Source of the DNA: Candidatus Saccharimonadota bacterium
GTDB lineage: Bacteria > Patescibacteriota > Gracilibacteria > BD1-5 > UBA6164
Reading direction: 5' to 3'
DNA length: 32,000 nt
Assembly: GCA_004563595.2 (NCBI GenBank)
Contig: CP042461.1
Span: forward strand, 1,200,001-1,232,000
Made by a program: the position numbers and the translations under genes. Shown here one piece after another: positions 7,601 to 32,000 of this stretch. The notes below the pieces were generated by a model that worked only from the letters and a program-made list of their open reading frames with translations, was not told the origin of the DNA and made no database searches. Every line of letters starts with the position of its first letter. The stretch's first letter is position 1.

Positions 7601-7690
7601 TCCTTAAAAATACTCCAAAACTCATTTTGAAAAAATCCCTTTTTGAATATAATCTGGGCGTATTTTTTAAAGAAATAAACACATAAAAAC

Positions 7691-11023: not shown

Positions 11024-13912
11024 ATGTTTGACCCTTCAAAGCTTGATTTAGATTTAGAGAATCTTGATAGTAATAATGAAAAAAAGAAAGCTGAAATGGT
11101 GCAAAAACCAGAAATAAAATGATCAAATGAAACTACTTTAAAAAATAGTGATATATTAAAGGTGGAACAATGAGAAAAGATAGGAACTAATGAAGTCAAA
11201 GAACTAAAAAAATCAAAAAATATAACTCCCCCTGAAAAGAAAATACCAAGTGATTTATCAGATGAACAAGTAGTTGCTAAGAAAGAATATTGACCTGATG
11301 AGGCAGCTTATGAAAAAAAAGATGATAAAAGTTCAAAACCTGTAAATCAAGATATTTCCCCTAAACTTATTTTTGATGTAAATATATCATCTGTTACAGA
11401 TATCCTTACTATACTCGTTGAAAAAGAGTATGATTTTGTAGTGATTGAACCAACAGACGACCATGTAAAGATTAGCTATAGAAAAGATAAAATTGAAAAG
11501 GAAGTAAAGCTCATAAAATACCCTATTTATTCACAAATTTTAATAAAATCAAAGACTCTTACAAAGCTTAAAGTTGACGAATCATCAATAACTCAAGAAT
11601 GAAGTTGAGAAATAAGATTAAAAAACAAAAACTACAAACTTCTCAGTAAAACATCCCCTTCTAATCTATGAGAAAAACTATTCTTAAAAGTTGTAGAGGA
11701 TACGAACAAGCTCATAAAAAAAGTAACAAAAAAAACATCTCTTAACCAGATTTTATGATTCTTTACTGCAGGGATTTTCTCTCTCCTTCTTATTGGATGA
11801 GCATTTCTTGCTTTTATACTCTTCAACTCGAACAATGTAGCTGATCTTACATTCTTTAATAACCTGTGAGTTGATGTATGAAGTATAAAGGACTTTACAG
11901 CAAAACTTGTTGATGGAATATTTTTCTCAATTATCTTTATAGAAACTATTTTTCTTTTCATTTTTACTTTCAAAGCCCTCCTTACAAAAAAAGATTTTAA
12001 ACAAAAAAAGATTGCAAGAACAGTTTTATCGATATTTTTTCTTTTCCTTGTTCTTATTTCAAGTTTCATTTGGCTTACTCTGAGTACAAAAATAACGAGT
12101 CTAACAGGTTTAAACTACTGAAAAATAGAAACCTATGACAATTCAAAATTTTTAAGTAATATTTTTGATGAAAATTGATCAAAAATAAATTTAAATTCTA
12201 GGATTATAGGGCCTGTAACTATAAGATTTGATATAGAACCCTTTATCGACAAACTTATCGCTGATTGATTTACCCCTCAAAGTATTACATGGGTATTTGA
12301 AGATGAAGAAATTGAAAAACCAATTGAAGATTTCAAGCTCATGAAAGAATTTAATAAAAAAGGTCTATTTAATGTAAAACTACTTATCACTGGTTTAAAT
12401 TTAAAACAAGAAATCGAAACTTTAGAAAAAGAAATTGCAAAGGTAAATATAGCTAACATAGTGGAAATAAAGGAAAAAAAGATCGACAATGGAGGAAGTA
12501 TTTTTGATTTTGATGCAAGCGATCTTAAAAATTTATGAAAAATAAAATGGTACTATATTCCAGATCTCAATGGAAAAAGTGATAGTGAGCAAACTGAGCT
12601 TGTTAATAATGCATTAGCAAAAGAAGTATTAACTGGAGATCTATTCACCAGCAAAATTATTTTTGATCAGGAGGTTATTTTATGAATGAGAATAATTGAT
12701 ACAAATGATGAGTCAGATGGACTTGATAAAATATTTATTATATCAAAGGATGAATCTGATAATATCAATGGAGAAATTAGTTATACAAGGTGAATAGAAA
12801 ATGATTTAGAATATGAAATCAAAGTCAAAAATCCAGAAACAGCTTTTTGAAATTGATTTATAGAGGAGTTCAAATGGAAAATCTGAGATAAAGATATTAC
12901 AAAAGAGGTTGATTTAACAGATCTTGAAGGGTCCTCAACTATCAAATATGAATTTAAAGAATATGGAAAGCATAAGATTATCGTTTCCTTAACAGATTCT
13001 AGATGACAAGTAAAAGAACTCTCTACCATTATAGATATCCCTAAAAAGTTAAAATTAAGACAAGAACTCCTAATCAATAATGCTGGTGAAAAAATTGAAA
13101 ATCTAAACTATGAAAAACAATTAAACGAATATTATATAAATGAAATCTGAATACCAACTCAACTTGGACTTGATGCAAGGCTCATCAAAGCAGATAATCT
13201 CCTCTATACTCTAAAGAAAGTAGAGTGGGACTATAATTCAGATTGAGACATAGATGCGACATGAAAACTTGTACAATATGATATTAATTCAGAATGAAAC
13301 CATACCTTCACTGTTCATTACACATTTGTACATAGAAAGGTAGCAGATGATATAATAAAAATTACAGAAAAAATATATATAGAATCTGTCACGAAAGATG
13401 CCCAATTAAACCTGAACATCAAAAAAACAGGAAACTATGTCCCTATTATCGTTCAATTTGATGCTTCAACAAGTCAGGTAAAAAATGAAAATATTGTAAA
13501 ATTTATTTGGGATTATTGAGATTGAGTTGTTGAAGAAAGAGACTCTATCGTAAAATGACACAAATATACAACTCCTGGGGATTACGAAGTAAAACTTACT
13601 GTTGTAACAGAAAGTGGGGAAAAACATTCTATCTCTAAAAAACTTATCCTTATACCAAAACCTCAAGTAGTGCAAATATCATCAAGTATGAAAAAAGCAC
13701 CTATATGACAAGGTATAGACTTCTTATCTGATAAATCAGAAGGACAAATCACTTGATACTTCTGGGATTTCTGAGATGGATCAACTTCAATTGAGGCAAA
13801 TCCTACTCATTATTATACAAAAGCAGGTTCATATAAGATTAAACTCAAGTTAGACTTTGCCAATAATAACGTATTAGAAGATACTACTACAATAGATATA
13901 TTTGAAGAATAA
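11024..13912 (+). CDS. Membrane protein (962 aa): cytoplasmic PilB/GspE N2-like domain without ATPase core, 3 TM helices, extracellular PKD repeats
   Basis: The whole frame was hand-translated and contains only TGA interruptions.
- N-terminal region: ILTILVEKEYDFVVIEPTDDHVKISYRKDKIEKEV...KSKTLTKLKVDESSITQEGSGEIRLKNKNYKLLSKTSPSNLGEKLFLKV. This parallels the IHxEP...vRxRiDG...RiK...l...E.R.PQdG...RvSt.P...GEk.vlR segment that precedes the Walker A of T2SS/T4P ATPases. No Walker A follows it.
- TM helices: ILGFFTAGIFSLLLIGGAFLAFILF, LVDGIFFSIIFIETIFLFIFTF and VLSIFFLFLVLISSFIWLTL.
- PKD signatures: WDYGDGVVEERDSIVKGHKYTTPGDYEVKLTV and [28 protein letters not shown], plus about 3 degenerate copies. 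Confidence 0.75.
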
Positions 13913-13995: not shown

Positions 13996-14031
13996 AAAAA
14001 CAGATACTCATTTACGAGTATCTGTTTTTTT
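13996..14031 (-). terminator. Intrinsic terminator of giant gene A (A-run / T-run flanked, bidirectional shape)
   Basis: Stem cagatactc (14001-14009) / gagtatctg (14016-14024), flanked by AAAAA and TTTTTTT. It ends 4 nt from the TAA of gene A (14036-14038). A near-identical copy sits at 27530-27567. Confidence 0.75.
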
Positions 14032-16765
14032 GTAATTAAGACTTCAGACTTTTCAAGAAGATTAAATAAGTTTTTTCAATATTACTTTTTAATATCTTCA
14101 TCTTGATCTTGTAGTTAATTCCCTTCTCCTTGTTATTCTTTGTTAAGATATAAGAGTCTATATTCTTCAATAACTTTGTCTTGAAAAATAGTACCTTTAT
14201 ACTTTTCTCCTTCTTGTATTTAATAATAAGAGTATCTAATCTTGCTCAAAGTTTGTTCACTATATCATTCTCTGATAAGTATACTCACACACTACTTGCT
14301 GTTCCAGTTTCTGCTGTTACAGTTGTATTGGCTTCTCTTTTCAATGCTTTTGCAAACAGTTTGAACGTTGCGAGTATCTTCACTTTGTGTTCTCTTGTAC
14401 TTTGTTTCGCTTGTCTGGCTAATATATAATTCTCTACGTCTTTGATAAAAGTATTTCTGTATTCTATTACTTTCTCATCATTATCTTTCTGCTTTTGTTC
14501 GATTACTTTGTCGACTCTCTTCTCTATCAATTGAAGGATTGTCATTTCTGAATGGTATTTCTTCAATGTTCATCATCATGTACTGTCTGTACTACTTCAT
14601 GTTCATGTTCATCCACTATTCAACTCTACTACATCTTCTTCTCAACAGAGACTTCATAGTTTCCCATATTTACATGATACTTCGTCTTGGACATACCATT
14701 TGTAAGTCGTTGTTGATCATGGGATCAGTTTACATGTGAGTTGTTCGTCTTTACAGGTTGGAATATAACTTCATCAACCTCAACCTCCTCATCAGCCTCC
14801 TCAACCTCAGCTTGAACTTGAACTTCATCAGCTACTTGTACTTGCTGTGGCTACTGAAAAGTTAATCGTATAATCACTTACATTTTCATTTGAATCAGTG
14901 TCCATACATCTTACATAGTAAGCATAACTTGTTCAGTCTGTAAGTCATGTTATGTTTGCTGTATGTGTGATTCCTCATGTTGCTGTTGTAAATATGTCTG
15001 TCATTGACGCATATGTTGTATTTACTACTGTTGAGTATTTACATGTTCATATTTCATCTGTATTTAATGTCAGATTCACAGCTGTCGTTCCTGATACTTG
15101 TTCTCAATTTGGTAATCCATTTGAGAGTATTGGAGCGGTTACATCAACGAGAGTGGCTACTGAAAAGTTCAGTGTGTAATCTGTTGTTGTTTCATTACTT
15201 GATCCATCTATACATCTTACATAGTATGTGTGTGATGTTCCATTGGTAAGTCATGTTATATTTGCTGTATGTGTAATTCCTCAGGTTCCTGTTGTAAATA
15301 TGTCTGTCATTGATGCATATGTTGTATTTACTACCGTTGAGTATTTACAAGTAGAGTTTTCATTGGTATCTAATGTCAGATTCACAGCTGTTGTTCCTGA
15401 AGCTTGTTCTCCGTTTGGAAGTCCATTACTAAGGATTGGTGCTGTTGCATCAACTACGTTTGCTACTGAAAAATTCAGTACGTAATCTGATGTGTTTTCA
15501 TTACTTGATCCATCTATACATCTTACATAATACGTATATGATGCTCAGTCTGTAAGTCATGTTACATTTGTTGTATGACTTGTATTTCATGTCGTTGTAA
15601 AGGTATCTGTCATTGATGTATATGTTGTATTTACTACTGTTGAGTATTTACATGTTGATGCTTCATTGGTATCTAATGTTAGATTCACATTTGTTGTTCC
15701 TGAGGCTTGTTCTCCGTTTGGAAGTCCATTACTAAGGATCGGTGCTGTTGCATCAACTACGTTCGCTACTGAAAAGTTCAGTGTGTAATCTGTGGTTGTT
15801 TCATTATTTGATCCATCTATACATCTTACATAATACGTATATGATGTTCCATCTGTCAGTCATGTTACATTTGTAGAATGACTTGTATTTCATGTCGTTG
15901 TAAAGGTATCTGTCATTGATGCATACGTTGTATTTACTACTGTTGAGTATTTACATGTTGATGCTTCATTCGTATCTAGTGTCAGATTCACATTTGTTGT
16001 TCCTGAGGCTTGTTCTCAGTTTGGAAGTCCATTACTTAAAAATGGTGCTCATGTGTCTGGAGTATTTGCTACTGAGAAGTTTAATGTATAATCTGTTGTG
16101 GTTGCATTAGAGTTTCCATCCATACATCTTACATAATACGTATGTGATGTTCCATCTGTAAGTCATGTTATGTTGGTTGTATGGTTTGTATTTCATGTCG
16201 TTGTAAATGTGTTTCACATTGCTCAATATGATGTGTTTGCATTTGGAGAGTATCTACAAGTTGCATTCTCATCGGTATCTAATGTCAGATTTACATTTGT
16301 TGTTCCTGAGGCTTGCTCTCCACTTGGAGTTCCGTTCGATAGAATCGGTGCTGTTGTGTCTGGAGTATTTGCTACTGAGAAATTCAGTGTGTAGTCTGTT
16401 GTATTTACATTTGATACTGAGTCGATACATCTTACGTAGTACGTATATGATATTCCATCTATCAGTCATGTTATGTTGGTACTATGTGTTGTATTTCAGG
16501 TTGTTGTAAATGTATTCCCTATTCATGCGTATGTAGTATTTGAATTTATTCAATATTTACAGGTTGCATTTTCGTCTGTGTCTAATGTGAGATTCACATT
16601 TGTTGTTCCTGAGGCTTGTTCTCCACTTGGTGTTCCATTCGAAAGTACTGGAGCTGTTGTGTCTGGAGTTACGGCTACAGAAAAGTTTAATGTGTAATCT
16701 GCTGTTGTTGCATTACTTGATCCATCTATACATCTTACATAATACGTATGTGATGTTGCATCTGT
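13996..16765 (-). repeat. Segmental duplication, copy 1 (terminator + tail + linker + first ~6.3 Ig repeats of gene A)
   Basis: It is colinear with 27532-30310. The offset is 13536 bp, becoming 13545 after a 9-bp indel near 14815/28350. In the 60-nt blocks I compared I saw 0-2 mismatches per block. Identity collapses after about 16765/30310. Confidence 0.9.
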
Positions 16766-19700
16766 AAGTCCTCATATACTCACACTATGTGTTTGTGATC
16801 ATGTTGTAGCAAAGTTGTTTATCATTGATCCATAAGCTACACTTGCAGTTGTAGAATATTTACAAAATGCATCCTCATCTGTAGATATACTGAGTGTTAT
16901 ATTTGTTGTTCCTGCAGCTTGTTCTCCACTTGGGGTTCCGTTCGAAAGAATTGGAGCTGCAGTATCCGGTGTATTTGCTACAGAGAAATTGAGTGTGTAA
17001 TCTGCTGTGTTTTCATTACTTGATCCATCCATACATCTTACATAGTAAGTATATGATGTTGCATCTGTCAGTCATGTTATGTTGGTTGTATGACTTGTAT
17101 TTCATGTTGTTGCAAAGGTATTTATCATACTTGAATATGCTGTATTTGCACTTGTTGCATATCTACAGGTTGCATTTTCAACAGTGTCTAATGTCAGATT
17201 CACATTCGTTGTTCCTGAAGCTTGTTCTCCACTTGGTGTTCCATTCGAAAGTACTGGAGCTGTTGTGTCTGGAGTGTTCGCTACAGAAAAATTTAATGTG
17301 TAATCTGTTGTTGTTTCATTACTTGATCAGTCGATACATCTTACATAGTACGTATATGAATTCCCATCTGTTAATCATGTTACATTTGTAGAATGTGATG
17401 TTATTCATGTAGTAGTAAATGTATTTGTCATACTTGTGAATACTGTATTTGCAACTGTAGAGTATTTACAAGTTGCATTCTCATCTGTATCGAGTGAGAG
17501 ATTTATATTTGTTGTTCCTCAGGCTTGTTCTCCACTTGGAGTTCCGTTTGATAATACTGGAACCGTTATGTCTGTCGAAGTAGTTGATCCTGTTGAAAAT
17601 TTATAAGCAGCAATAACAGGTGGATTCGTACCAGTTGCTTGATTATAATCAGCTTTATAAATAGATACAAATAACGTACCTGATACAGGGTCGAATGTTC
17701 CTCCACTGATTTGATTCACTTTACTTATTTGGAAAGGAGCATCGAAAATACCAACATCATAAGGAGTCACATCATATGCATTCATTATACCATTTTTGAC
17801 ATCTACAAGATCATTCACATCATACATCCAATAATAAGGGTATGTATCATACTCATCTATTATATAGTGACCTTGAATACCAGTATGAGGAGAGACTCCA
17901 TATGACATACCACTTTCATGACCTCCTGACATTCACAGTACTAAATATGTACTTGTTCATGGAACTATCATACCAAATGATCCTTCTGATGCATGAGTCC
18001 ATAAATCATTTGTACCACTACTATTGTATAAGTCTTCTAGAGGTACTAGGCCGTTTGGTAAAGTATACTTTAACAACTCAGTTGTCGGAATATCACTAAT
18101 AGAAGCTGAATTATCAAGTACATCGGTAGCATTAAATGCAAATGCAGCAGGACCAACACTCGTACTGTATATCAATGCCCTTGCTGTACTATTAGTAAAA
18201 CCTCCTATATGTGTTCCACCAAGAGCACTTTGCCATTCAACAGGAGTAGGTGAGATCCATCCAGCCGCATACGATTGTCCCTCCATAGTGAAATAACCAT
18301 CAACTTCTGATGTAGCAAGGTTATTTGAATCACGAAGAATAAGTGTATTTGTTGAACTGTATGGACTTTGATCATAAAAATCATAATGATTTACGAGTAA
18401 GTGCCCATTTTCGGCATAGATACCATTTATACGACTTTGTCCATTAACTTTATGAACTGCTTTATCAAGTACATTCGTAAAGTTTTGAAGAGGTGCCTCA
18501 GCAGTATTTAGTGCTGTTATATCAGTACTATTTACAAGTTCAGGAATTGAAAATTCAGCAATAGACTTACCATATTCGTGTCCAGCAACAAATAATGAAT
18601 TATTATCAGCATTGAATCATATAGCTCCATATGAAAAACTAGCATTCGCATAGTCACCAACTCAAAAATTACCTGACGGTAAACGAAAAGCTCCCTGATA
18701 ACTAATGTTATCTAAAGTAAGGAGTGGGAACGTAGATCATGAAGATGAAGTTATCGAATCTGTAACGTTGAAATTTATAACAAAATCTAGATTATTTTCA
18801 TTACTTGATCCATCGATACATCTTACATAATATGTATATGATACTCCATTTGTAAGTCCTCATATACTCACACTATGTGATTGTGATCATGTTGTTGCAA
18901 ATGTATTTATCATTGATCCATACGCTGTGTCTGCAGTTGTTGAATATTTACAAAATGCATTCTCATCGGTAGAAACGCTCAGTGTTGTATTTGTTGTTCC
19001 TGATGCTTGTTCTCCTGTAGGAGTTCCATTTGAAAGTATTGGAGCTGTAGTATCAACGACAACAATAGTTCCATCAACATATTCATATGCTCAGATATCA
19101 TATGTCCCTTGTCTCATGATCCCATTTAAATCTCTTGCAATTGGAGCAAAGCTTGGTAAAGCTTTATCAAAAACAAGTGAATTTTTTCATGAATCAACTG
19201 CGGGGCTTCATGATTCTATGTTTAAATTATCACTCGATGTATTTACAAATAATGGATCTAGATTATCTACATTATTTACATCAGCAATACAATCAGTACA
19301 ACTATCGTAGTTTCCTATACCGTAATATAAATTATTTGAGAGGTTCACTGTTGATGCTTCTCATATGCTCATATAATGATTCCCTGTAGGACCTGGGAAA
19401 TCCGATGTCATGTGTACTATATTATTATCAAACTTTGTATCAAATGTTGTTCCAGCAGATGTAGAAAATCAAATATATCCTGAATTATAAAATGTATTAT
19501 TATAAAAATATCCTGCTCAATTAATACTATTATGTTTCGATGTTGGTGCATATCAAGTATGATATGAATCAGCAGCATCATAGGTTCCACAATTCAAAAT
19601 TAAATTATTATACACATATGTTGGTTCTGGGATAACTTCCCCAGGGTCATAACTCAAATCGTATACATTTAATGCAGTTGCTCTTTGATAATCACAACTT

Positions 19701-22700
19701 ATTATGTTATTAAATATGAAATGTGACTTTACAACTTGTGTTGATAAACAACGATTTTGTTGATGATTCACTGTGATTTCTGGTCATCTCCCATAATCAT
19801 TATCATAAATATAATTCCATCATAGAGAATTCCCTTCAGTGTCAGCACATCAAGCTATATAAATACCATGATCAAAACGATTTGCACTTCTTGCCCCATG
19901 AATAGCATTCCCAAGAACAATATTCCCATTTCATAAATGAGTAGAATTATTTCAGACATTAATATGCCCAGCTCATTGACCAAAATACTCTTTGAGTCAT
20001 TGAACATCATTTCATATAAATCTATGGTAATCTCCTGCTAATCTTACAGAAGCATATGGTGTATCAAAAGCAAATCATGACATAACCATATAATTGTTTT
20101 CAAAAAATACTCCATTTTGAAAACTATTTGAATATGTTGGGTAAGTAAAATTTGCTAACTCTCATGGGTAACTAATAAGTGCTATAGGATTTCCTTGTGT
20201 CCCACTTATTTCACTCGTTCTAATCCATAAAATAGAATTTCATCCATTTGTTTTTTCTGAATATGTTCCTCCTCTAAAATAAAGAATATCTCCAGGTTGA
20301 ATATTTTCTAAATATCAACTTCATCCACTTGCTTGCTTATAACTAAATGGTGATGTAAATGATCCATCTCAAAAAGTATCTGTAGAGTTTACAAAATATA
20401 TATCCCCATCTCTAATAGTAAATGGGAGAGTATTTGATTCTTGTCCACCTATGTGAAGCTTGATATCAAGGTCTCATACTCACATTGAACTATTTAAGTA
20501 AAATGTAATTCTTTGTTGCTGTGGTGTTGGCCAAGCATCTCACCACTGTTCATAGTCTGAATCTGAAGTGAGGTCTACTCAACCTACACTTATATAGCTT
20601 GATCCTCTTGATGATCAAAAATTCTTTCACCATACGGTTACAGCTACTCATTTATCTGATTCAGATGTACTCCAACCACTCTTTGGTCAGCTTTCAAGAT
20701 CTGAATATAACAATACTGGAGCCGTTACGTCTGATGAACCAGTACTTGTTGGTTCTCCAATAACGTAGTCTGCTGGTAATCTCCCATCTTTTGGTGATTC
20801 ATCCCATAATGGATGTGATGAATCTATTGGAGTATATACTACAACATCATCGATTGCATACCATTGTTCTGCTTGATTACTAGGGTCTGAAAACCAATTA
20901 TATGTATTTCATCCTATTCAAAATGTATTAAATTTATCACTCAGCGAACTTCACGCACTTCTCCATGGAATATCACTCAAAGAGAATTCTTCTACTCCAT
21001 CAAGCCAGTATTGAGCAGTTCCATCTGCTACTCATAACGCAGAATTCATTCATACTTTTATTTCTAAATGATGCCATCCTCCATCATCAAAGGGGTCAGT
21101 AAATGTCGTTGAGGCATTTGTACCCCCCCATGGAGAATCGTAAGTATCCGGATATGCACCACAATAATATTCACTTTCTTGTGGATCACATCTTAAAGCA
21201 GCTACTGATCTATATCCATAGGTTGGAGAGCTCTTAATATCAAGTAAAAATATTGGAGCACTATCACCATTACTAAAGAAATTCCATGGACTATTTACTC
21301 CATCAGGTCCATCAAAATTATAAATTCTAGCCAGTTTAAAAAATGCATCTGCCCATTGCCAGTCTGGATCAACTTTAACCCAGAAACTCATATTAATTTC
21401 ATCATAACTTCCACTAAGACTCTTTATCAGCATAGTGTCATCACCCCAAGCTTGTTCTCATACAGCTTTACTTGACTCTTGGTATTTTATCCAAGATTTT
21501 CCACTCGCTCATCTAAATTGTTCGTTAGTAATTGATTGTCCTGGTTTCTTAGTTGGAAATCCATTATCTGGGTGCCAGTATTCAGTATTTCTTAGGTAAT
21601 TCCATCCTTCAGGAATAGTACTATCACATGCTGCAATACCATCACACTCTTCACTCCCATCAGCAACATACCAATCTGGATGATCATCAAAATTATCTTC
21701 AAAAAGGATATTTCCTCCACTCGATATAGGAGTACTTGCTACTGAAAAACTAATAGTATAGTCTGATGTATTTTCATTACTACTTCCATCTTCACACCTT
21801 ACATAGTAGGTATACGAATTTCCATCCGTTAATCATGTGATATTTACTGAATGTGATGTACTATTTGTTATTGTAAATACATTACTCATTCATGCATATG
21901 TTGTATTTACTGTTGATGAATACTTACACGTCGCTGTTTCATCTGTTGAAACACTCAAAGTTGTGTTTGTAGTTCCCAACGAAAGTTCTCCTGTTGGAGT
22001 TCCATTTGATAATATAGGTGCTGTAGTATCAGTTGATCCACTGTTAGAAGTACCAATAACATAACTTTCTGGCAATCTCCCATCTTTTGGTGATGCATCC
22101 CATAATGGATGTGATGAATCTATTGGTGTATATGTTACTACATCATCTACGGCATACCATTCTTCATCTTGATTGGAAATATCTGAATACCAGTTATTCC
22201 AATTTCCACCAATAGATATAAAGTTCCAACCTGTTCCTTCAGGAGATCCTACTTGTCTAAATGGCATATCTGTTACTGAATGTTCCAACAGACCATCTAA
22301 CCAAAATTGGAAAATTCCATCTTCTACTCCAGGAGTAGAGTTCATTTTCACTCTTAGCTCTATATGATGCCACTCACCATCTCCAAAGTTTTCTTCAAAA
22401 GTTGGGTGTGTAACTCCATCTACTGAAGTTGTAAACCCTGTACATGGTTCTCCATCTAAACATGTGAAATAATCTGTTGTTGTCCATTTATTATAATAAC
22501 TTGGACCACCACAACTAAGATAACCTGATTCTTGAGGATCACACCTCGGAGCATGACTCGATGTCCAACCATAAGTTGATGAGTTATTCAAATCAAAGAT
22601 ATAAAGAGGACCATTCACTCCAGCTGAACCGAGTTTAAAAGGATCAACTGATCCTGACGGACCATCAAAATGTCAGAGTCTAAATAATTTCAATTGTTTT

Positions 22701-25528
22701 GTTCCTGCTTGCCATTGCCATCCTGGTTGCATAAGAACCCACGCACTAAAGTACACCTCATCATACTCTTGATCTAAGCTTTTCATCAAAATAGAATCCG
22801 AATAGTAATTTGCCTCGTCTGATGTATGATTCGATTCACTTGTTTTAATCCACGACTTTCCTTCCGTCCCTCTTTTTACATCACCTGAAATTCTTTGACC
22901 TGCCTTCTTTGTTGAATAACCATTATCAGGGTGCCAATTATCATCGGAATTACGATAAAATGTCCAATCTTGAGGTACATCATCATCACATATACCTGTT
23001 ACTCCTGCACCTGTACAGACAGTTGAAGTAGGAGAAGGATACCAATCTGGGTGATCATCAAAATTATCTTCAAAAAGAATATTTCCTCCACTCGATATAG
23101 GAGTACTTGCTACTGAAAAACTAATAGTATAGTCTGATGTATTTTCATTACTACTTTCATCTTCACATCTTACATAGTAGGTATATGAATTCCCATTTGT
23201 TAACCCTGCTATATTTACTGAATGTGACGTACTACTTATTACAATAAAAGTGTCACTCATTCATGCATAGGTTGCATTCGCTGTTGGTGAATATTTACAC
23301 GTCGCTGTTTCATCTGTTGAAACACTCAAAGTTGTATTTGTAGTTCCTGATGAAAGTTCTCCTGTTGGACCCCCATTTGATAATACGGGTGCGGTAGTAT
23401 CTGATGGTAATGCCCCTGACCCAATAACATAATTTATTGGTAATCTCCCATCTTTTGGTGATTCATCCCATAACGGATGTGATGAATCAATTGGTGTATA
23501 TGCCACAAAATCATCTATTGCATACGAAAGTTCTTTGTTATTTGAAGGGTCTGAAAAGAAATTGTTCCAGTTTCAGCCAATAGATACAAAATTAAATCCT
23601 AGATCTGCCGGTGATCATGCATATCTCCATTGAGCATCACTACGAGAATATTGTTCTACTCCATCAATCCACATACTAAATTCTCCATCAGCAATACCTG
23701 GAGTTGAATTATTCTTTACATAAAGTTCTAGTTTATGCCATGAACCATCTCACATTGTTTCTTTAAATGTTGGGTTCCCCGCAGGAGTATAATCTATTTC
23801 ACCGGTACATGTCATTCCCTCTGGACATACAAATACTGGATCATATCATATTTCATTATCGCAATAATAATTATCTTCTTGATTATCACACCTCGGTTCA
23901 TGATGACCTCTCCATCCCCATTGAGTAGAATTTTTTAATTGAAGCAAGTACATAGGTCCTGTATTTCCAGCACCTCAAAGTTGAAATACATTCACTCCAG
24001 TACCACTATCAACATGTCCCATACGTGTTAGTTTCAATTCTCCATTTCAAGGGCTTACCCATTCCCATTCTGCAGGAAATTTAATCCAAAAACTTGTATG
24101 GATTTCATCATAATCTTCTTCCAAAACTTTCATCAAGATTGCATCTGAATAATAGTTTGATTCACCAATTGAGTGGTCTGATTCACTTGATTTAATCCAT
24201 GCTTTTCAACTTGCTCATCTAAACTCATCACTTGAAATCCTTTGCCCATAGTTATGACTTGGATATCAAGTTGATGGATTCCATTGATCTGTATGACGAT
24301 ACCATGTCCAACCTAATGGAATATCATCATCAGGACATTTTTCAGCCCAGAATCATCCACACTCTGATCATGTTGGTGTCCATTCATTATGACCATCAAA
24401 ATCATCTTCAAAAAGAATATTTCCTCCGGTAGGTTCTACTAAATTTGCTACCGAAAAATTAATAAGGTAGTCTGATATATTTTCATTTGAATCTCCATCT
24501 ATACATCTGACATAGTATCTATATAAATTTCCATCTGTAAGTCATCACACACTTACAGTATGTGATTGAGCTCATGTAGTCGAAAAACTATTTGTCATTA
24601 ATCCATATGCTATGTTTGCAGTTGTTGAATATTTACAAAATGCATTTTCATCTGTTGAAACACTCAAAATTACATTTGTTGTTCCTGATGATTGCTCACC
24701 ACTTGGAGCTCCATTTGAAAGAATTGGAGCTATTGCAGGTGGAGTATATCATGAAGTAGCTATATCATCGTTATAATCAGTAAGTATCTCTGCCGCACTC
24801 AATGCTTCATTATATATTTTTAATTCATCAATAGCTCCATCAAAAGTACGTGATCCATCTGGATTCGCTCATATACTAACTGGCACTGCAGAACTTTGTG
24901 CCACTGGTCAATTTGCTCATGTAGATGATCCAGCTTCAACACCATTTACATAGATTCTCATCGTTGTTTGATCATATGTAGCTGTTATTTGTTGCCATAC
25001 TCAAGCTTGAAGTTCTACATTATTTCATACTAGCGTTACTGTCTCTTGATCAGATTTTAAACGAAAACGAGGATAATATTTTCCACCTTCATCCATAGTA
25101 CTTATCATCCAGTAATGATCAGCTCCAGAGGAGCTTGTTGTTTTTGAAATGATTCTTGCATCTGGAATACCAAAAGTATCTGGTTTTATCCATGCTGAAA
25201 TAGTAAGTCCATTTCATGTTATATCCATATTTCAAAGTGAAATATTTGTATTATTAAAATCAATAGCTGAGTTTATAAGACCTGGAGACCAAGCCCCATT
25301 TGTAATAGTTCATTGGCTCCCATAAACATCTCAAAGTACTGTTCAGGTATTTTCATCAAATGAATAATAATGTATTTGGCTTGCAGGGGCTGCATATATT
25401 AATTGGAAATTATATATATATAACAATAAAGTCATTGTTAGTAACACCAAAAATGATGATATTTTTTTTCTGTAAACAGATATTTGCATAATAAATAATC
25501 CTTTAAAAAATATTAGGTATATTAACAT
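14036..25528 (-). CDS. Giant secreted modular surface protein A (3830 aa): putative adhesin / polysaccharide-binding or -degrading protein
   Basis: All minus-strand ORF-track fragments share one frame (14285-14566, 16799-17032, 17519-17932, 17957-18286, 19553-19771, 21050-21433, 21890-22618, 22673-23260, 23261-23506, 25343-25528). I scanned every codon between them and found no TAA/TAG, only TGA.
- Start: the N-terminus is MLIYLIFFKGLFIMQISVYRKKISSFLVLLTMTLLLYIYNFQLIYAAPASQ. It looks like a signal peptide, and the true start may be the second ATG at 25489.
- Stop: TAA at 14036-14038. Confidence 0.85.
14851..17584 (-). repeat. Tandem array of 9 coding repeats (303-306 bp each, ~101-aa Ig-like units) in gene A
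   Basis: The FSVA-encoding marker (ctactga/ctacaga on the plus strand) recurs at 14851, 15157, 15463, 15766, 16069, 16372, 16675, 16978 and 17281. The unit consensus is DTTAPxLSNGxPSGEQxxGTTNxxLxxxTDExAxC(K/R)YSxxxxxxYxxMxxxFxxTGxxxHxxxxTGLTDGxxYxYYVRCxDxxGNxNxxDYxxxFSVA. Four more dispersed copies lie at about 18765-19060, 21745-22030, 23105-23400 and 24450-24745. Confidence 0.9.
17585..18740 (-). other. Domain of gene A: ~385-aa domain of unknown function, shared with giant gene B
   Basis: LTLDNISYQGAFRLPSGNFGVGDYANASFSYGAIGFNADNNSLFVAGHEYGKSIAEFSIP ... LGMSGGHESGMSYG ... YYWMYDVNDLVDVKNG ... IAAYKF. The C-terminal ~190 aa align to gene B residues encoded at 31432-32000 (GMSGMHESGGGYK...YIWLWDVNDFLDVKNG...ILAYKI). 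Confidence 0.5.
19078..20404 (-). other. Domain of gene A: right-handed parallel beta-helix (pectate-lyase fold)
   Basis: The entry motif is IYFVNSTDTFGDGSFTSPFSYKQA...IQPGDILYFRGGTYSE. It is followed by repeated N-rich rungs (NIVLGNAIHG, NNTFYNSGY, FDNNIVH, NLSNNLYYG). The characteristic ending is LDPLFVNTSSDNLNIESGSPAVDSG...ARDLNGIMRQGTYDIGAYEY. Confidence 0.7.
20405..20700 (-). other. Domain of gene A: IPT/TIG-like Ig domain
   Basis: GVAVTVWGKNFGSSRGSSYISVGGVDLTSDSDYEQWGD...ITFYLNSSMGVGDLDIKLHIGGQESNTLPFTIRDG follows the typical G..vti.G.NFG...g.v.vGG pattern. Confidence 0.55.
20822..21721 (-). other. Domain of gene A: beta-jelly-roll module 3
   Basis: Starts GGNILFEDNFDDHPDWYVADGSEECDG. 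Continues ...GGWHHLEIKVGMNSALGVADGTAQYWLDGVEE...FGIGGNTYNWFSD...WYAIDDVVVYTPID. Confidence 0.55.
22118..23092 (-). other. Domain of gene A: beta-jelly-roll module 2
   Basis: Starts GGNILFEDNFDDHPDWYPSP. Continues ...GEWHHIELRVKMNSTPGVEDGIFQFWLDGLLE...FISIGGNWNNWYSD...WYAVDDVVTYTPID. Confidence 0.55.
23485..24427 (-). other. Domain of gene A: beta-jelly-roll module 1 (ConA-like lectin/glucanase/polysaccharide-lyase-like)
   Basis: Starts GGNILFEDDFDGHNEW. Continues ...DGSWHKLELYVKNNSTPGIADGEFSMWIDGVEQ...FVSIGGNWNNFFSD...YAIDDFVAYTPID. It is homologous to modules 2 and 3. Confidence 0.55.
24785..25370 (-). other. Domain of gene A: LamG / concanavalin-A-like (Laminin_G_3-type)
   Basis: ISAWIKPDTFG...RIISK...VELQAGVWQQITATYDQTTMRIYVNGVEAG...VSIGANPDGSRTFDGAIDELKIYNEALSAAEIL is the classic Laminin_G_3 ending. 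Confidence 0.75.
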
Positions 25529-25707: not shown

Positions 25708-27516
25708 ATGAATATACAAAAAAAATGATTTACCCTTGTAGAACTTATCGTTGTTATCACAATACTTGCAATACTCTGAACCATAGCTTTTTTATCATTT
25801 CAATGATATAGTCGACAAGCAAGAGACAGTGTAAGAATATCTAATTATTCAAATATAAATACGACGCTTGAAGTCTATGAAGTACGAGCATGAAAATATC
25901 CAAAACCTGAAAACACTGACACCATTAGTTATGCAGGAGTAAATATTTGGCAGCAATGAGTGATATGAGAGAGAATACAATCTCTCCTAAGAATTGCATG
26001 AGATTTAAACGATACAAAATTTGGAAGTGAAATATCATACTCCGTAACTACTTCATGAAAAGATTATGAAATTGCTTGATTATTTGAATGATCTGAACTA
26101 ACCCAAAATGTTACAAATCAAACATATGCATCAACTGATGTGATTGCCTATGTCTGATGAAGTTATAACTCAAAATATTTAAAAACAAGTACTGGGTGAG
26201 AAACTCATATTATTTCCATCCCAAGTTTAATACTTAATACAAGGTGAGTTGATCAAGAAATCCAAGTCTGAGTTCAAAGTAATAATTTTGTTATAGGAAA
26301 TAAAAAAACTATTCCATGAAGTTTTATTTGATGAGATTTCAATTCCGAAGAAATAGTATTTACTTCTAGGTTGTTATACCAATGAACTGATTGTTCACCT
26401 CTCAATGAAATGGCCTATTATAATCTTGAAGTGGGGTTAAAACAATCTTACTGAACAGGTACTTTCCAAACTATAGAAAAATATGATCAATATCAAACAT
26501 GATATATTCATCCGTTCTATTTAGAAGAAAATGCATTACTACTTGGAAAAGAATTAAGATGTTCAAGTAACCCTATTTTTCTAAAGTCAGATGAGGTGTT
26601 ACCTCTTAGTTGTGTAAATGAAGATGGTACTTTTGAATGATTTTCATCTTGAGATCTTATAAGTGATAGTTGTTTACATACTTATGAATGAGATTCCGAT
26701 TGGATCGTTGAAAATTGAAGTTGAAACTGAGGGTGAAATGCTGTAAGAAACATTCCTGCTTTAGGAGGTAACAAAACAACATCACTTATATATAATATGG
26801 TCTTAAATAAGACGGCTAATCTTAAATTTGATTATAAGTTAGATTTTGATTATTGAGAAGTAACCTTTTATATTAATTGAGTAAAGTATGAGAAATGGGG
26901 GTATGAAACTTGAGGTATAACAAATGGAGTTGGTGCTTACCAAACCTATACTACGTCACTCCTACCACCATGACAATATGAATTTAAATTTGAAGCGTAT
27001 ACAAAATCACCTCCTAATGCATATGCAAATTTATATATAGATAATATTGTTATAGACGAGACTTGTATTGATGGATGACCTACATGTGGATGGACTCTAT
27101 GATTTGAAGATGGGAGCACTAATCCATATGATTTATTTTCTTTCTCTTGAGTTTCAACAACACCTTGGACAAGAATAACTGACTCTTCAGAATGAACTTA
27201 TGCTCTAAAAAATCCTATACTTGGACAAAACGAAAGTACATATTTAACTTATGAGAAGACTCTTACACAAACGGGGGCTCTCAACTTTGATTATAAATTG
27301 TCACAAAGCACTGCAATCGTTTACTTTTCTATTAATTGAGCTACAGACGATTCATGGTGATATTCAAAATCCTATACCTGATCCACAAACTATCAATCAT
27401 ACACCACCTCTAGCTTGCCCCCTTGAACATATCAATTTCAATTTCAAGTACGTACTCTGAGTTATAGTAATCCATATGCGAATTTTTATCTTGATAATAT
27501 AACTATAACTCCATAG
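25708..27516 (+). CDS. Large type IV pilin / pseudopilin-like protein (602 aa) with two C-terminal beta-sandwich (MAM/CBM-like) modules
   Basis: The whole frame was hand-translated and contains only TGA interruptions.
- N-terminus: MNIQKKGFTLVELIVVITILAILGTIAFLSF is a canonical prepilin signal (G|FTLxE, Glu5). The cleavage-site Gly is a TGA codon (25726-25728).
- C-terminus: two related modules end in ...YTTSLLPPGQYEFKFEAYTKSPPNAYANLYIDNIVID (about 26690-27075) and ...YTTSSLPPGTYQFQFQVRTLSYSNPYANFYLDNITIT (about 27076-27513). Confidence 0.85.
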
Positions 27517-27529
27517 TAAACAATCACAC

Positions 27530-27567
27530 AAAAAAACAGATACTCATTTGCGAGTATCTGTTTTTTT
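27530..27567. terminator. Bidirectional intrinsic terminator shared by the convergent pilin gene and giant gene B
   Basis: Stem cagatactc (27537-27545) / gagtatctg (27552-27560), flanked by an A-run and a T-run. It lies 14 nt after the pilin TAG and 4 nt before the gene B TAA. It is a paralog of the terminator at 13996-14031, with one loop substitution. Confidence 0.8.
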
Positions 27568-30310: not shown

Positions 30311-32000
30311 TAATCATGTTATGTTGGTTGTATGACTTGTATTTCAGGTTGTTGTAAAGGTATCTGTCATTGATGCATACGTTGTATTTACTGCTGTTGA
30401 GTATTTACAGGTTGCATTTTCATCTGTATCTAATGTCAGGTTCACATTCGTTGTTCCTGAGGCTTGTTCTCCACTTGGAGTTCAGTTCGAAAGAATTGGT
30501 GCCGTTGTGTCTGGAGTGTTCGCTACAGAAAAATTTAATGTGTAGTCTGTTGTGTTTTCATTACTTGATCAGTCGATACATCTTACATAATACGTATATG
30601 ATGTTGCATCTGTGAGTCATGTTATGTTGGTTGTATGACTTGTATTTCATGTCGTTGCAAAGGTATTTATCATACTTGCATATGCTGTATTTGCACTTGT
30701 TGAATATCTACAAGTAGAGTTCTCATCAGTATCTAATGTCAGGTTCACATTCGTTGTTCCTGATGCTTGTTCTCCACTTGGAGTTCCGTTCGAAAGAATT
30801 GGAGCTGTGGTATCTGGAGTGTTCGCTACTGAGAAACTTAATGTGTAATTTGTTGTGTTTACGTTTGATACGGTATCGATACATCTTACATAATATGTAT
30901 ATGATGTTGCATCTGTGAGTCATGTAATATTTGTAGTGTGTGTTGTATTCCCTGTTGTAGCAAAAGTGTTTATCATACTTGCATATGCTGTATTTGCACT
31001 TGTTGAATATCTACAAGTAGAGTTCTCATCAGTATCTAATGTCAGATTTACATTTGTTGTTCCTGATGTTTGTTCTCCACTAGGAGTTCCATTTGAAAGA
31101 ATCGGAGCTGTTGTATCTGGAGTGTTCGCTACTGAAAAATTGAGTGTGTAATCTATTGTTGTTTCATTCAAATACCCATCTATACATCTTACATAATATG
31201 TATATGAATTCCCTTCTGTTAATCATGTTACATTTGTAGAATGTGATGTATTTCACGTCGTAGTAAATGTATTTGTCATACTTGTGAATACTGTATTTGC
31301 AACGGTAGAATATTTACATGTTGCATTCTCATCTGTATCTAATGTGAGATTTACATTCGTTGTTCCTCAGGCTTGTTCTCCAGTTGGAGTTCCGTTTGAA
31401 AGTATAGCTGCTGTAGTATCTACTACCGCATTTATCTTGTAGGCAAGGATTACTGGTCAAGCAGCATGATTCTCTCCATCTGCTCTGTTTAAATTCAAAT
31501 ACAATGTGTTTGATACATCATCATATGATCAACCAGCAATTAAGTTTTTTCTTGTTCCATTGAGTCTATATTCAAATGGAGTATTAAATTTTCCATATTG
31601 GTATGGTTTTACTTCGTATGATTGTTTTAATCCATTTTTTACATCTAAGAAATCATTTACATCCCATAACCATATATAGTTATACATATCAAGTGGATCA
31701 TAGGCACATGGTCATCAACATGCTTCTGTTGCACCTGATTGAGTAATCTTGTATCATCCTCCACTTTCATGCATTCATGACATTCAGATCGTTGCATAGG
31801 TTCTGGTTCATGGAATTATAAATCCATATTCTGCTCAAGAATCTTCCGTCCATAAATCATTATCTCCATTTGCATTATATAGATCCCAGTCTCAATATTC
31901 TGCCCACCCTGAAGGTGTCTTTGCTAATACATTACTTAAACCAAAATCTAATAATTTAGTAGTCGGTATAGTTACATTTGTATCGGTTGCATTCAAAAGA
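27572..32000 (-). CDS. Giant surface protein B, C-terminal 1476 codons; the 5' part lies beyond the window
   Basis: It uses the same frame class as gene A. I scanned every codon from 27572 to 32000 and found no TAA/TAG. From the window edge the order is: the unknown-domain homolog (31432-32000), 10 Ig-like repeats, the Gly/Ser linker, the 4-Cys segment and the basic tail. The stop is TAA at 27572-27574. Confidence 0.85.
28396..31432 (-). repeat. Tandem array of 10 coding repeats (303-306 bp) in gene B
   Basis: The FSVA marker recurs at 28396, 28702, 29008, 29311, 29614, 29917, 30220, 30523, 30826 and 31129. Confidence 0.9.

What the first reader, a model, noticed from the sequence alone, without database searches (positions are those of the whole stretch)
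13996..16765. ~2.8-kb near-identical 3' block (terminator, tail, linker, first six repeats) shared by the two giant genes while their heads diverge
Segment 13996-16765 is colinear with 27532-30310. I saw 0-2 mismatches per 60-nt block in the blocks I compared, plus one 9-bp in-frame indel. Identity drops abruptly inside repeat 7. The non-coding terminator hairpin is included.

This pattern suggests gene conversion or concerted evolution of the stalk and anchor, with diversification of the distal functional part.

The copies are direct repeats 13.5 kb apart. Homologous recombination between them could delete or duplicate the head of giant A together with the pilin gene, which is a possible switching mechanism.

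The block is also an assembly hazard for short-read MAGs.
Basis: seen in the sequence. Interest (0 to 1): 0.65.

Follow-up and report, generated by a model that had tools for sequence, protein, structure and literature searches.

The report
Shared recombining tail of two giant genes
Two neighbouring giant surface-protein genes of an uncultured bacterium that reads TGA as glycine carry the same repeat stalk, linker, basic tail and terminator; recombination has kept these similar while the enzyme-like heads stayed very different, which is a familiar pattern seen here in an unfamiliar organism.

Summary
The block is real. 13996-16765 aligns colinearly with 27532-30310. It includes a bidirectional terminator hairpin and one 9-nt in-frame indel, and identity breaks sharply at 16765/16766.

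It is a mosaic, not uniformly near-identical: 139 mismatches in 2767 aligned bases (94.5% counting gaps). Tracts of 98-100% alternate with patches of 84-87%. Similarity resumes at 86-89% and ends only where the repeat array meets the head (~17572 / ~31420).

The genes can only be read under genetic code 25 (TGA = Gly). Giant A (3817 aa) has a signal peptide, LamG, three PL14-like modules, a beta-helix-like region and a beta-propeller domain. These are followed by nine 101-aa FN3-like units, a poly-Gly linker, a 4-Cys mini-domain and two basic helical repeats.

Synonymous divergence ranges from 0.014 to 0.46 between neighbouring units, and several units are chimeras. The adjacent head domains are only 44% identical and belong to different subfamilies. 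This supports repeated gene conversion, both between and within the genes.

The same C-terminal module sits on unrelated heads in other TGA-recoded contigs. Its role as an anchor, and any deletion "switch", remain untested. This is a new member of a known kind; interest is moderate.

The parts
13996..16765 (-). Copy 1 of the shared 3' block as claimed: terminator, tail, linkers, and units A13 to A8 plus the 3' third of A7
   Evidence: Global alignment gives 2628 identical of 2782 columns, with 139 mismatches and indels of 9, 3 and 3 nt.
27532..30310 (-). Copy 2 of the shared 3' block, belonging to giant B
   Evidence: Same alignment as copy 1. Offset is 13536, then 13545 after the 9-nt indel.
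13996..14033 (.). Bidirectional intrinsic-terminator hairpin downstream of giant A. Stem CAGATACTC / GAGTATCTG, with an A-run on one side and a T-run on the other.
   Evidence: Folding gives dG -18.1 kcal/mol, z -7.2. Found by the terminator scan. Read directly.
27527..27570 (.). The same hairpin downstream of giant B. It also follows the convergent pilin-like gene. It differs from copy A by one loop base.
   Evidence: Folding gives dG -24.8 kcal/mol, z -9.6. Found by the terminator scan. Read directly.
14036..25489 (-). Giant gene A, 3817 codons under code 25. Order: signal peptide, LamG, three PL14-like modules, beta-helix-like region and domain Y, with single FN3-like units interspersed, then the 3' array and tail.
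   Evidence: Open reading frame only when TGA is read as sense. Pfam Laminin_G_3 1.7e-32. Pfam Polysacc_lyase_14 1e-6, 29 bits against a cut-off of 27. The only hydrophobic segment is aa 10-32.
27572..31999 (-). Giant gene B. Only the 3' 1475 codons are visible; the 5' end lies beyond the window.
   Evidence: ORF is open to the window end under code 25.
14039..14569 (-). C-terminal tail of A: two Lys-rich helical repeats of about 75 aa, pI 9.9, net charge about +19. The B copy is 27575-28105.
   Evidence: 97.5-99.2% nt identity to the B copy. An AF2 single-sequence model of the first repeat is a 3-helix bundle, pLDDT 78. Charge. Only 6 homologues among 1.84 billion representatives.
14612..14770 (-). 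4-Cys mini-domain (…TCKDEQLTCKLIPGSTTTYKWYVQDEVSCKYGKLGSLC…). The B copy is 28148-28306.
   Evidence: Conserved in L020, L022-L026, but not seen in L021. The 14570-14770 segment that contains it is 96.5% identical between A and B.
14771..14842 (-). Gly/Ser linker, written largely with TGA codons. The B copy (28307-28387) is 9 nt longer.
   Evidence: Nucleotide alignment printed; table-11 fragments.
14843..17572 (-). Tandem array of nine 303-nt (101-aa) FN3-like units, A13 to A5
   Evidence: TRF reports 8.7 copies of period 303. Unit table and identity matrix. Only weak FN3-type matches, below cut-off.
28388..31420 (-). Tandem array of ten units, B10 to B1. B2 has no in-register partner in A.
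   Evidence: TRF reports 10.0 copies. Unit matrix.
16664..16966 (-). Unit A7, a chimera. Its 3' 102 nt match B4, and its middle matches the head-embedded unit A4.
   Evidence: In 51-nt windows, A7 against B4 scores 28-35 in the middle and 47-49 at the 3' end. A7 against A4 scores 42-47 in the middle.
28691..28996 (-). Unit B9, a chimera. Its 5' two thirds are of the A13/B10 type and its 3' third is of the A12 type. This is an out-of-register exchange.
   Evidence: Scores of 49-51/51 against A13 or B10 at the 5' end, and 50-51/51 against A12 at the 3' end. Painting.
17573..18745 (-). Domain Y of A, the beta-propeller-type head domain that adjoins the array. The partial B counterpart is 31421-31999.
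   Evidence: A and B are 43-44% identical at the protein level. 185 homologues, mostly stand-alone proteins of about 420 aa. AF2 model has pLDDT 90 and matches only generic propellers.
25708..27516 (+). Large type IV pilin-like gene lying between the two giants. It is divergent from A and convergent with B.
   Evidence: Pfam N_methyl 30.9 bits against a cut-off of 21.2. TIGR02532 29.8 bits against 16.3. No similarity to the giants.
11024..13912 (+). PKD-domain membrane protein convergent with giant A. It has its own hairpin terminator at 13943-13963.
   Evidence: Pfam PKD_4 2.2e-32. Hairpin. Orthologues in L012-L018 have no giant gene nearby.

Best explanation
Two paralogous genes for giant secreted surface proteins lie in the same orientation, 13.5 kb apart, in a TGA=Gly (code 25) Candidate Phyla Radiation bacterium of the Gracilibacteria/Absconditabacteria type.

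Both genes end in the same C-terminal cassette: a tandem array of 101-aa FN3-like units, a poly-Gly linker, a 4-Cys mini-domain, two basic three-helix repeats, and a bidirectional terminator.

Repeated homologous recombination keeps this cassette similar at the DNA level. Short non-reciprocal exchanges (gene conversion) occur in register between the two genes. Out-of-register exchanges and unequal crossing-over occur among the 303-nt units within each gene. The result is a mosaic of tracts of different ages.

Homology ends where the repeat array meets the head. Beyond that point the heads have no substrate for exchange, so they keep their separate and much older identities. The heads are made of carbohydrate-binding or carbohydrate-cleaving fold types: LamG, PL14-like, beta-helix and beta-propeller.

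What is shown: the mosaic, the chimeric units, the incongruence between head and tail, and the recurrence of the cassette on other heads.

What is inferred: that the cassette is the common stalk and cell-surface attachment part, with the basic tail binding an anionic envelope component; that the heads act on host or prey envelope polysaccharide; and that a crossover between the two direct repeats can delete A's head together with the pilin-like gene.
For: **Reading frame and code**
- No long ORFs exist under table 11, but ORFs of 3838 and at least 1475 codons appear when TGA is read as sense.
- In SecA, 20 of 23 in-frame TGA codons align with Gly of B. subtilis SecA and none with Trp.

**Block identity**
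- 94.5% identity over 2782 alignment columns, with exact runs of 350, 197, 176 and 150 nt.
- The 40 nt of 3' non-coding DNA match at 39 of 40 positions.

**Heterogeneous age**
- dS is 0.014 (A10/B7) and 0.028 (A8/B5), against 0.33-0.35 (A12/B9, A11/B8) and 0.44-0.46 (A7/B4, A6/B3). The tail has dS 0.074 and dN 0.009.
- Mismatches are clustered. The variance-to-mean ratio per 100 nt is 7.5, and 0 of 10,000 permutations reached the observed maximum run.

**Chimeric units**
- A7 combines an A4-like middle with a B4-like 3' end.
- B9 combines an A13/B10-type 5' part with an A12-type 3' part.
- The middle of B4 is of the unit-10 type, and the 5' part of A12 is of the A11/B8 type.
- Copy number differs: 9 units in A and 10 in B.

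**Incongruence between head and tail**
- In domain Y, A and B are 44% identical. A is 60% identical to P0001, and B is 50% identical to P0045.
- The tails are 97.5-99% identical between A and B, but only 71% (nt) and 66-68% (aa) identical to the closest external tail, in L020.

**The cassette is a module**
- The same poly-Gly, 4-Cys and two-basic-helical-repeat end occurs on beta-helix-like (faint Pel9A-like Pfam hit), DUF285 and cadherin-like proteins in other TGA-recoded contigs.
- All of these tails have pI about 10 and net charge +17 to +32.

**Recombination genes**
- RuvA and RmuC are encoded in the window itself.
Against: - There is no read-level or population evidence. The source contig is in none of the searchable collections, so neither the two-copy state nor ongoing exchange could be verified independently.
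- No sister genome with orthologous giants was found. Relatives that share the SecA-PKD neighbourhood lack the giants. The classical test for concerted evolution, within-genome against between-genome trees, could not be run.
- Part of the apparent in-register divergence comes from out-of-register exchange, so the dS values are not clean ages.
- The anchor role of the tail rests only on position, charge and recurrence. Structure and profile searches gave nothing.
- If the N-terminal hydrophobic segment is not cleaved, the C-terminus would be the distal end and not the anchor.
Confidence: 0.75

Rival explanations
1. A single recent graft. One recombination or duplication event placed a copy of one gene's whole stalk-tail cassette behind a different head. 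Everything since then is ordinary point mutation plus shuffling among repeat units within each gene. There is no continuing exchange between the genes.
For: - The distal edge of the block is sharp, at the terminator.
- The proximal end of similarity coincides with a domain junction.
- The cassette is clearly modular, because it occurs on unrelated heads elsewhere.
- Several of the dips are explained by out-of-register exchange within a gene.
Against: - In-register pairs with no better donor elsewhere in the window still differ about 30-fold in dS. A10/B7 has 0.014 and A6/B3 has 0.46, and the painting shows A6 as the best match for B3.
- The tail has dS 0.074, which is neither the youngest nor the oldest class.
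- A single event predicts one age for all in-register segments.
Confidence: 0.15
2. Assembly artefact. One real cassette, or strain variants of it, was assembled twice or was phased chimerically across the repeat arrays.
For: - Exact repeats of up to 350 nt, and 303-nt tandem units at 70-100% identity, are hard for short-read assemblers.
- Other contigs with this module are mostly shorter than 2.1 kb and break in the linker or the stalk.
Against: - Each copy is flanked on both sides by unique sequence: PKD gene and A head for one, pilin-like gene and B head for the other.
- Both reading frames run uninterrupted through the junctions, for 3817 and at least 1475 codons.
- The copies differ at 139 positions, in linker length and in unit number.
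- Each head needs a 3' end.
- An in-register phase switch by the assembler would swap differences between the copies, but it would not change the identity profile.
Confidence: 0.05
3. A programmed variation system. The shared block would be a dedicated recombination substrate, used to switch or swap heads (cassette-type phase or antigenic variation) or to excise A's head together with the pilin-like gene.
For: - The repeats are direct, so the geometry allows a deletion.
- The genes encode surface proteins in a probable episymbiont or predator lineage, where giant proteins are thought to mediate host attachment (PMC8080830).
- Exchange has clearly happened repeatedly.
Against: - No silent or truncated cassettes, site-specific recombinase, invertible promoter or DGR was seen in the window. 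Pfam scans of the large ORFs found none.
- Gene A is full length, and both genes have their own terminator.
- A deletion between direct repeats is irreversible.
- No variant alleles could be retrieved.
Confidence: 0.05

Closest known systems
Helicobacter pylori babA/babB/babC adhesin paralogues
   Same: - Paralogous surface-protein genes in one genome share a C-terminal homologous region of more than 90% identity, while the functional part differs.
- Intragenomic homologous recombination (gene conversion) produces chimeras (PMC4552749).
   Different: - Bab proteins are outer-membrane beta-barrel proteins of about 700 aa, at dispersed loci, and their 5' ends are also homologous.
- Chimeric alleles have been observed in isolates, and CT-repeat phase variation is attached.
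- Here the genes are about five times longer and adjacent. The shared part is a tandem-repeat stalk plus a novel tail, and no allelic variants have been seen.
Ectopic recombination among repeat-containing adhesin genes (yeast FLO family)
   Same: Cell-surface gene duplicates with internal tandem repeats recombine with one another and yield chimeric alleles (PMC3512402, abstract seen).
   Different: The FLO genes are eukaryotic and subtelomeric, and the effect was demonstrated experimentally. Here it is only inferred from one sequence.
Giant surface proteins of Absconditabacteria (Vampirococcus lugosii)
   Same: A code-25 CPR lineage with several proteins of 1392-4163 aa. These carry PKD, fibronectin and other adhesion domains, occur alongside type IV pili, and are proposed to mediate host attachment (PMC8080830).
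   Different: In the passages of that paper that I searched, I found no mention of paralogue pairs with homogenised 3' blocks or of this C-terminal module. Homology to those proteins was not tested here.
Cassette-type antigenic variation (Neisseria pilE/pilS, Borrelia vlsE, Mycoplasma MgPa repeats)
   Same: Gene conversion between repeated surface-protein sequences. This rests on my own knowledge; a review (PMC4534519) appeared.
   Different: Those systems have one expression site plus silent partial cassettes, and it is the variable part that is exchanged. Here both genes look complete, and it is the constant part that is homogenised.
Gram-positive stalk-and-anchor adhesins (SasG/Aap, Alp/Rib family; LPXTG proteins)
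   Same: The layout is an N-terminal signal peptide, a functional head, a highly identical tandem-repeat stalk prone to copy-number change, and a C-terminal wall-attachment element (my own knowledge).
   Different: Giant A has no LPXTG motif, no C-terminal hydrophobic segment and no charged-tail sorting signal. The C-terminus is instead a folded basic helical module of unknown function.

Membership tests
Paralogous surface-protein genes homogenised by gene conversion (bab-type) | Two or more paralogues in one genome with segmental near-identity that includes synonymous and non-coding sites | tested here: met
   dS falls to 0.014 in places. The 3' non-coding DNA matches at 39 of 40 positions. 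Exact runs reach 350 nt.
Paralogous surface-protein genes homogenised by gene conversion (bab-type) | Mosaic structure with discrete breakpoints and non-random clustering of differences | tested here: met
   Permutation test gave 0 of 10,000. Units A7, B9, B4 and A12 are chimeric.
Paralogous surface-protein genes homogenised by gene conversion (bab-type) | Different gene segments have incongruent histories | tested here: met
   In domain Y, A and B are 44% identical, yet A is 60% identical to P0001 and B is 50% identical to P0045. The tails are 97.5-99% identical.
Paralogous surface-protein genes homogenised by gene conversion (bab-type) | Paralogues within a genome are more alike than orthologues between genomes, or chimeric alleles are seen in populations | not testable with these tools
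   No orthologous giants and no source reads were found. The only calibration is one external tail at 71% nt identity.
Cassette-type programmed antigenic or phase variation | One expression locus plus promoterless or truncated donor cassettes, or a dedicated recombinase or invertible element | tested here: not met
   Gene A is full length, with a signal peptide and promoter-like sites. Both genes have terminators. No partial cassettes were found in the window. No recombinase appeared among the Pfam hits. The 5' end of B was not seen.
Known C-terminal cell-surface sorting or anchor signals (LPXTG, PEP-CTERM, GlyGly-CTERM, T9SS CTD, SLH and others) | A signature motif followed by a hydrophobic helix and a basic tail, or a match to the family profile | tested here: not met
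   No LPXTG motif. The maximum Kyte-Doolittle score over 19 aa in the last 250 aa is 0.69. No hit for the tail in Pfam, NCBIfam or PDB sequences. Foldseek best E-value is 0.8.
Fibronectin type III-like repeat | A profile match above the curated threshold, or a confident fold match | tested here: inconclusive
   Only sub-threshold matches: Pur_ac_phosph_N 21.7-25 bits against a cut-off of 30, DUF7800 and Y_Y_Y, and PDB FN3con at E 0.1. The unit type recurs in CPR and DPANN proteins. No structure model was made.
Type IV pilin / pseudopilin (the intervening gene) | Prepilin-type N-terminal cleavage/methylation motif followed by a hydrophobic helix | tested here: met
   PF07963 scores 30.9 bits against a cut-off of 21.2. 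TIGR02532 scores 29.8 bits against 16.3.
Rho-independent terminator | A stable GC-containing hairpin followed by a U-run | tested here: met
   An A-run lies upstream and a T-run downstream, so the signal reads in both directions. Function was not tested.
Genetic code 25 (TGA = Gly) | In-frame TGA codons at conserved glycine positions of universal proteins | tested here: met
   In SecA, 20 of 23 TGA codons align with Gly of 3jv2, including the GEGKT, AGRGTD and GRQGDPG motifs. None align with Trp.

The most novel reading that the evidence does not exclude
The cassette of poly-Gly linker, 4-Cys mini-domain and two basic three-helix repeats is a previously undescribed cell-surface attachment or sorting module, specific to TGA-recoded CPR bacteria. 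Because several giant surface proteins in one genome share it at the DNA level, it could also serve as a recombination platform. Enzyme or adhesin heads could then be exchanged, lost or duplicated, giving these episymbionts a way to vary their host-contact repertoire.
Probability: 0.15. Interest if true: 0.7.

Novelty: new member of a known kind. Interest (0 to 1): 0.4.

Why it matters
Giant surface proteins are thought to be how code-25 CPR bacteria recognise and attack their hosts, yet almost nothing is known about how they are built, attached or varied.

- **Modular build.** This locus shows a variable head made of carbohydrate-active fold types on a constant stalk and tail cassette. Recombination keeps the cassette uniform between paralogues.
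- **A testable domain.** The locus points to a small, lineage-restricted C-terminal module that could be tested as a surface anchor.
- **Annotation risk.** Standard-code gene calling shatters these genes, and code-4 calling writes Trp where the protein has Gly.
- **Assembly risk.** Short-read assemblies break inside the stalk. Databases therefore under-represent these genes, and MAG-based counts of them are unreliable.

The recombination phenomenon itself is textbook biology.

Tried and rejected
**Finding the source contig**
- The one table-11 ORF I tried (window:2834-3589, minus strand) was not on record.

**Searching for the tail**
- No hits in the 5.8-billion-protein index.
- No tail hits in GTDB genomes, only FN3-like hits in Saccharibacteria, Parcubacteria and DPANN.
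- No hits in JGI metagenomes.
- Only the exhaustive HMMER scan with a TGA-free 94-aa piece found relatives, six in all.
- A profile search with the tail alignment returned only two of the already known sequences, because the candidate cap was filled by Lys-rich sequences.

**Function of the tail**
- Pfam, NCBIfam and PDB sequence searches gave nothing.
- Foldseek with an AF2 model gave only generic helical bundles.

**Orthologous loci**
- Seven TGA-recoded contigs share the SecA-PKD neighbourhood. None has any giant-gene domain within the flanks held.

**Other checks**
- No tRNA or Rfam family lies in the window.
- The pilin-like and PKD proteins show no similarity to the giants.

**Explanations rejected**
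- Purifying selection alone cannot explain identity at synonymous and non-coding sites, nor a 30-fold range in dS.
- A uniformly recent whole-gene duplication is ruled out by heads that are 44% identical and fall in different subfamilies.
Full report
**1. Reading the window**

Under the standard bacterial code no ORF in the window exceeds 251 aa. If TGA is read as sense, long ORFs appear:
- ribonucleotide reductase
- RmuC and RuvA
- SecA
- a PKD-domain membrane protein (11009-13912, + strand)
- a 3838-codon ORF on the minus strand (14036-25552, giant A)
- a 607-codon ORF on the plus strand (25693-27516)
- a minus-strand ORF open to the window end (27572-31999, giant B, at least 1475 codons)

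In SecA, 20 of 23 in-frame TGA codons align with glycines of B. subtilis SecA, including the GEGKT, AGRGTD and GRQGDPG motifs. None aligns with tryptophan. The organism therefore uses genetic code 25. To my knowledge this is the hallmark of Gracilibacteria and Absconditabacteria. G+C content is 32%.

All protein work used my own code-25 translations.

**2. The observation**

A global alignment shows that 13996-16765 is colinear with 27532-30310:
- 2628 identical of 2782 columns (94.5%)
- 139 mismatches
- one 9-nt in-frame indel in the Gly/Ser linker, and a local 3+3-nt offset
- a longest exact run of 350 nt (15705-16054)

The block starts 40 nt downstream of the two stop codons. It contains the same hairpin flanked by an A-run and a T-run, which is a bidirectional intrinsic-terminator shape. 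Folding gives dG -18.1 and -24.8 kcal/mol, z -7.2 and -9.6. Upstream of 13996 and 27532 the sequences are unrelated.

The stated coordinates, the terminator, the indel and the sharp drop inside "repeat 7" are all correct. At that drop, 16664-16765 is 95% identical and 16766-16966 is 66%.

Two points need correcting.

First, the block is a mosaic:

| Segment | nt identity |
|---|---|
| Tail and terminator | 96.5-99% |
| A13/B10 | 93% |
| A12/B9 | 87% |
| A11/B8 | 86% |
| A10/B7 | 99.7% |
| A9/B6 | 95% |
| A8/B5 | 99% |

Only 30 of 46 60-nt blocks have 2 or fewer mismatches.

Second, similarity does not end at 16765. A6/B3 is 89% and A5/B1 is 86-87% identical, and B carries one extra unit. Homology stops at the junction between the repeat array and the next domain, about 17572 in A and 31420 in B. 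Tandem Repeats Finder reports 8.7 and 10.0 copies of a 303-nt unit.

**3. What the genes are**

Giant A, starting from the likely start MQISVY…, is 3817 aa. Its parts in order are:
- An N-terminal hydrophobic segment with an A-x-A-like site. It is the only hydrophobic stretch in the protein.
- A LamG domain (Laminin_G_3, 1.7e-32).
- Three modules of about 330 aa that match polysaccharide lyase family 14 just above threshold (1e-6, 29 bits against a cut-off of 27).
- A beta-helix-like region.
- A roughly 390-aa "domain Y".
- Single 101-aa units interspersed among these head parts.
- Nine tandem 101-aa units.
- A poly-Gly linker written largely with TGA codons.
- A 4-Cys mini-domain.
- Two Lys-rich helical repeats of about 75 aa.

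The 101-aa unit gives only sub-threshold FN3-type matches. It recurs in surface proteins of other CPR bacteria and DPANN archaea.

Domain Y belongs to a large family with no Pfam model. The family consists mostly of stand-alone secreted proteins of about 420 aa (185 hits). An AlphaFold model of one member (pLDDT 90) matches only generic beta-propellers.

The gene between the giants encodes a 602-aa protein with a genuine prepilin N-terminus. It has no similarity to the giants.

**4. Evidence for recombination rather than selection or simple duplication**

- **Synonymous divergence.** dS between in-register segments ranges from 0.014 and 0.028 (A10/B7, A8/B5), through 0.074 (tail) and 0.16-0.18 (A9/B6, A13/B10), to 0.33-0.46 (A12/B9, A11/B8, A7/B4, A6/B3). 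Adjacent, structurally equivalent units cannot differ 30-fold in synonymous divergence under constraint alone. Non-coding DNA is also shared.
- **Clustering.** Mismatches are strongly clustered. The variance-to-mean ratio is 7.5, and no permutation out of 10,000 reached the 350-nt run.
- **Chimeric units.**
- The middle of A7 matches the head-embedded unit A4 (42-47 of 51) and not B4 (28-35 of 51). Its 3' end matches B4 (47-49 of 51).
  - B9 combines an A13/B10-type 5' part with an A12-type 3' part.
  - B4 carries a tract of the unit-10 type.
  - The 5' part of A12 is of the A11/B8 type.
- **Incongruent heads.** Where both can be compared, A and B are 44% identical in domain Y. A's domain is 60% identical to a stand-alone protein (P0001), and B's is closest (50%) to a different subfamily (P0045). 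The heads are therefore old and distinct, while the tails are 97.5-99% identical.
- **External calibration.** The closest external tail (L020) is only 71% identical in nucleotides and 66-68% in amino acids.
- **Recombination genes.** RuvA and RmuC are encoded in the window.

**5. The C-terminal cassette as a module**

An exhaustive HMMER scan of 1.84 billion representatives with a TGA-free piece of the tail found only six relatives. Their contigs are all low in G+C and TGA-recoded. Where the 3' end lies on the contig (L024 and L025 break off earlier), each gene ends with a poly-Gly (or Gly/Ser) linker, two basic helical repeats and …FLKxLK(S)-stop. All but L021 also carry the 4-Cys domain.

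The module sits behind different stalks: FN3-like in most, cadherin-like in L026. It also sits behind different heads: beta-helix-like (a faint Pel9A-like Pfam hit) in L020 and DUF285 in L021. All tails have pI about 10 and net charge +17 to +32.

No known sorting or anchor family matches the tail. It has no transmembrane segment and no LPXTG motif. An AF2 single-sequence model of one repeat is a three-helix bundle with pLDDT 78.

My inference is that this is a common surface-attachment or interaction module. Whether it is the anchor or the distal tip depends on whether the N-terminal signal is cleaved.

**6. Context**

Seven TGA-recoded metagenome contigs keep the neighbourhood of RNR, RmuC, SecA and the PKD protein. 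None has any domain of the giants within the flanks held. The segment with giant A, the pilin-like gene and giant B is therefore lineage-specific. No orthologous pair was available for a between-genome test.

Five of the seven external contigs that carry the module are shorter than 2.1 kb. Four of them begin in the poly-Gly linker or the last stalk unit, and the fifth has an N-run gap in its stalk.

For the window itself, a duplication artefact is unlikely:
- Each copy has unique flanks on both sides.
- Both reading frames run through the junctions.
- The copies differ in 139 positions, in linker length and in unit number.

The internal phasing of variants could still be wrong.

**7. Comparison with known systems, and verdict**

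The pattern is that of paralogous surface-protein genes homogenised by gene conversion. The H. pylori bab paralogues are an example. Their C-terminal region is more than 90% identical, and chimeric alleles have been seen in isolates (PMC4552749). Repeat-containing adhesin families that recombine ectopically are another example (PMC3512402).

The pattern does not fit cassette-type programmed variation. There are no silent cassettes, and it is the constant part that is exchanged, not the variable part.

Giant surface proteins next to type IV pili are known from the code-25 predator Vampirococcus (PMC8080830).

A crossover between the two direct repeats would delete A's head and the pilin-like gene. 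That geometry is correct, but a deletion is irreversible and no variants were seen.

I rate this a new member of a known kind, of moderate interest. The one part that may be new is the lineage-restricted C-terminal module.

Noticed in passing
window 7679-10333 (SecA), and the whole window: The window can only be read under genetic code 25. In SecA, 20 of 23 in-frame TGA codons align with conserved Gly. TGA makes up 3-7% of codons in the large genes. Database copies of related genes are either broken into table-11 fragments or carry Trp in place of Gly (P0121, P0124).
   Followed up: yes
window 14771-14842 and 28307-28387: The poly-Gly linker is written with TGA codons interleaved with GGN (…TGA GGT TGA GGA GGC TGA TGA…). 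The only length difference in the tail region (9 nt) lies here. In other assemblies, contigs often start exactly in this linker.
   Followed up: partly
window 17573-18745 (domain Y of giant A); P0001-P0120: Domain Y belongs to a large uncharacterised family of secreted proteins of about 420 aa with no Pfam model. Members are found in Planctomycetes, Sumerlaeota and a Deltaproteobacteria MAG, and some carry a T9SS tail (PF18962). The predicted fold is a beta-propeller with no specific structural relative. The domains in A and B belong to different subfamilies.
   Followed up: partly
window 20.7-24.4 kb (giant A aa ~390-1590): Three tandem modules of about 450 aa, each a PL14-like jelly-roll domain followed by one FN3-like unit. 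Units A2 and A3 are 88% identical in nucleotides, so the head is internally duplicated as well.
   Followed up: partly
window 11024-13912; L012-L018: A roughly 960-aa membrane protein has a borderline T2SSE-like N-terminal stretch (24.7 bits against a cut-off of 24.9), transmembrane segments and C-terminal PKD domains. It is conserved immediately after SecA in seven TGA-recoded metagenome contigs. Those relatives lack the giant genes, so the region with the two giants and the pilin-like gene looks like a lineage-specific insertion.
   Followed up: partly
window 25708-27516: An unusually large (602-aa) type IV pilin-like protein. Its C-terminal half appears by eye to contain two similar beta-rich repeats (…YQ[TS]YTTS.LPPG.Y.F.F…NPYAN.Y.DNI.I). 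A self-BLAST did not detect them.
   Followed up: no
window 13943-13963: A second, separate hairpin followed by a T-run ends the PKD gene, just before the shared terminator. In copy B, the pilin-like gene instead shares the bidirectional hairpin with giant B.
   Followed up: yes
window 25533-25601: Back-to-back promoter-like sites lie in the roughly 200-nt gap between giant A and the pilin-like gene. The plus-strand site is TTGACA-17-AATAAT (11/12). The minus-strand site is TTGACT-18-TAAAAT with an upstream TG. These are consensus matches only.
   Followed up: no
window 5657-7561: A 634-aa ORF between RuvA and SecA has no Pfam match.
   Followed up: no
window 16235-16340: A roughly 105-nt patch with 14 mismatches sits inside otherwise near-identical tracts of A9/B6. 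No better donor for it exists anywhere in the window, which may point to a third paralogue outside the window.
   Followed up: partly
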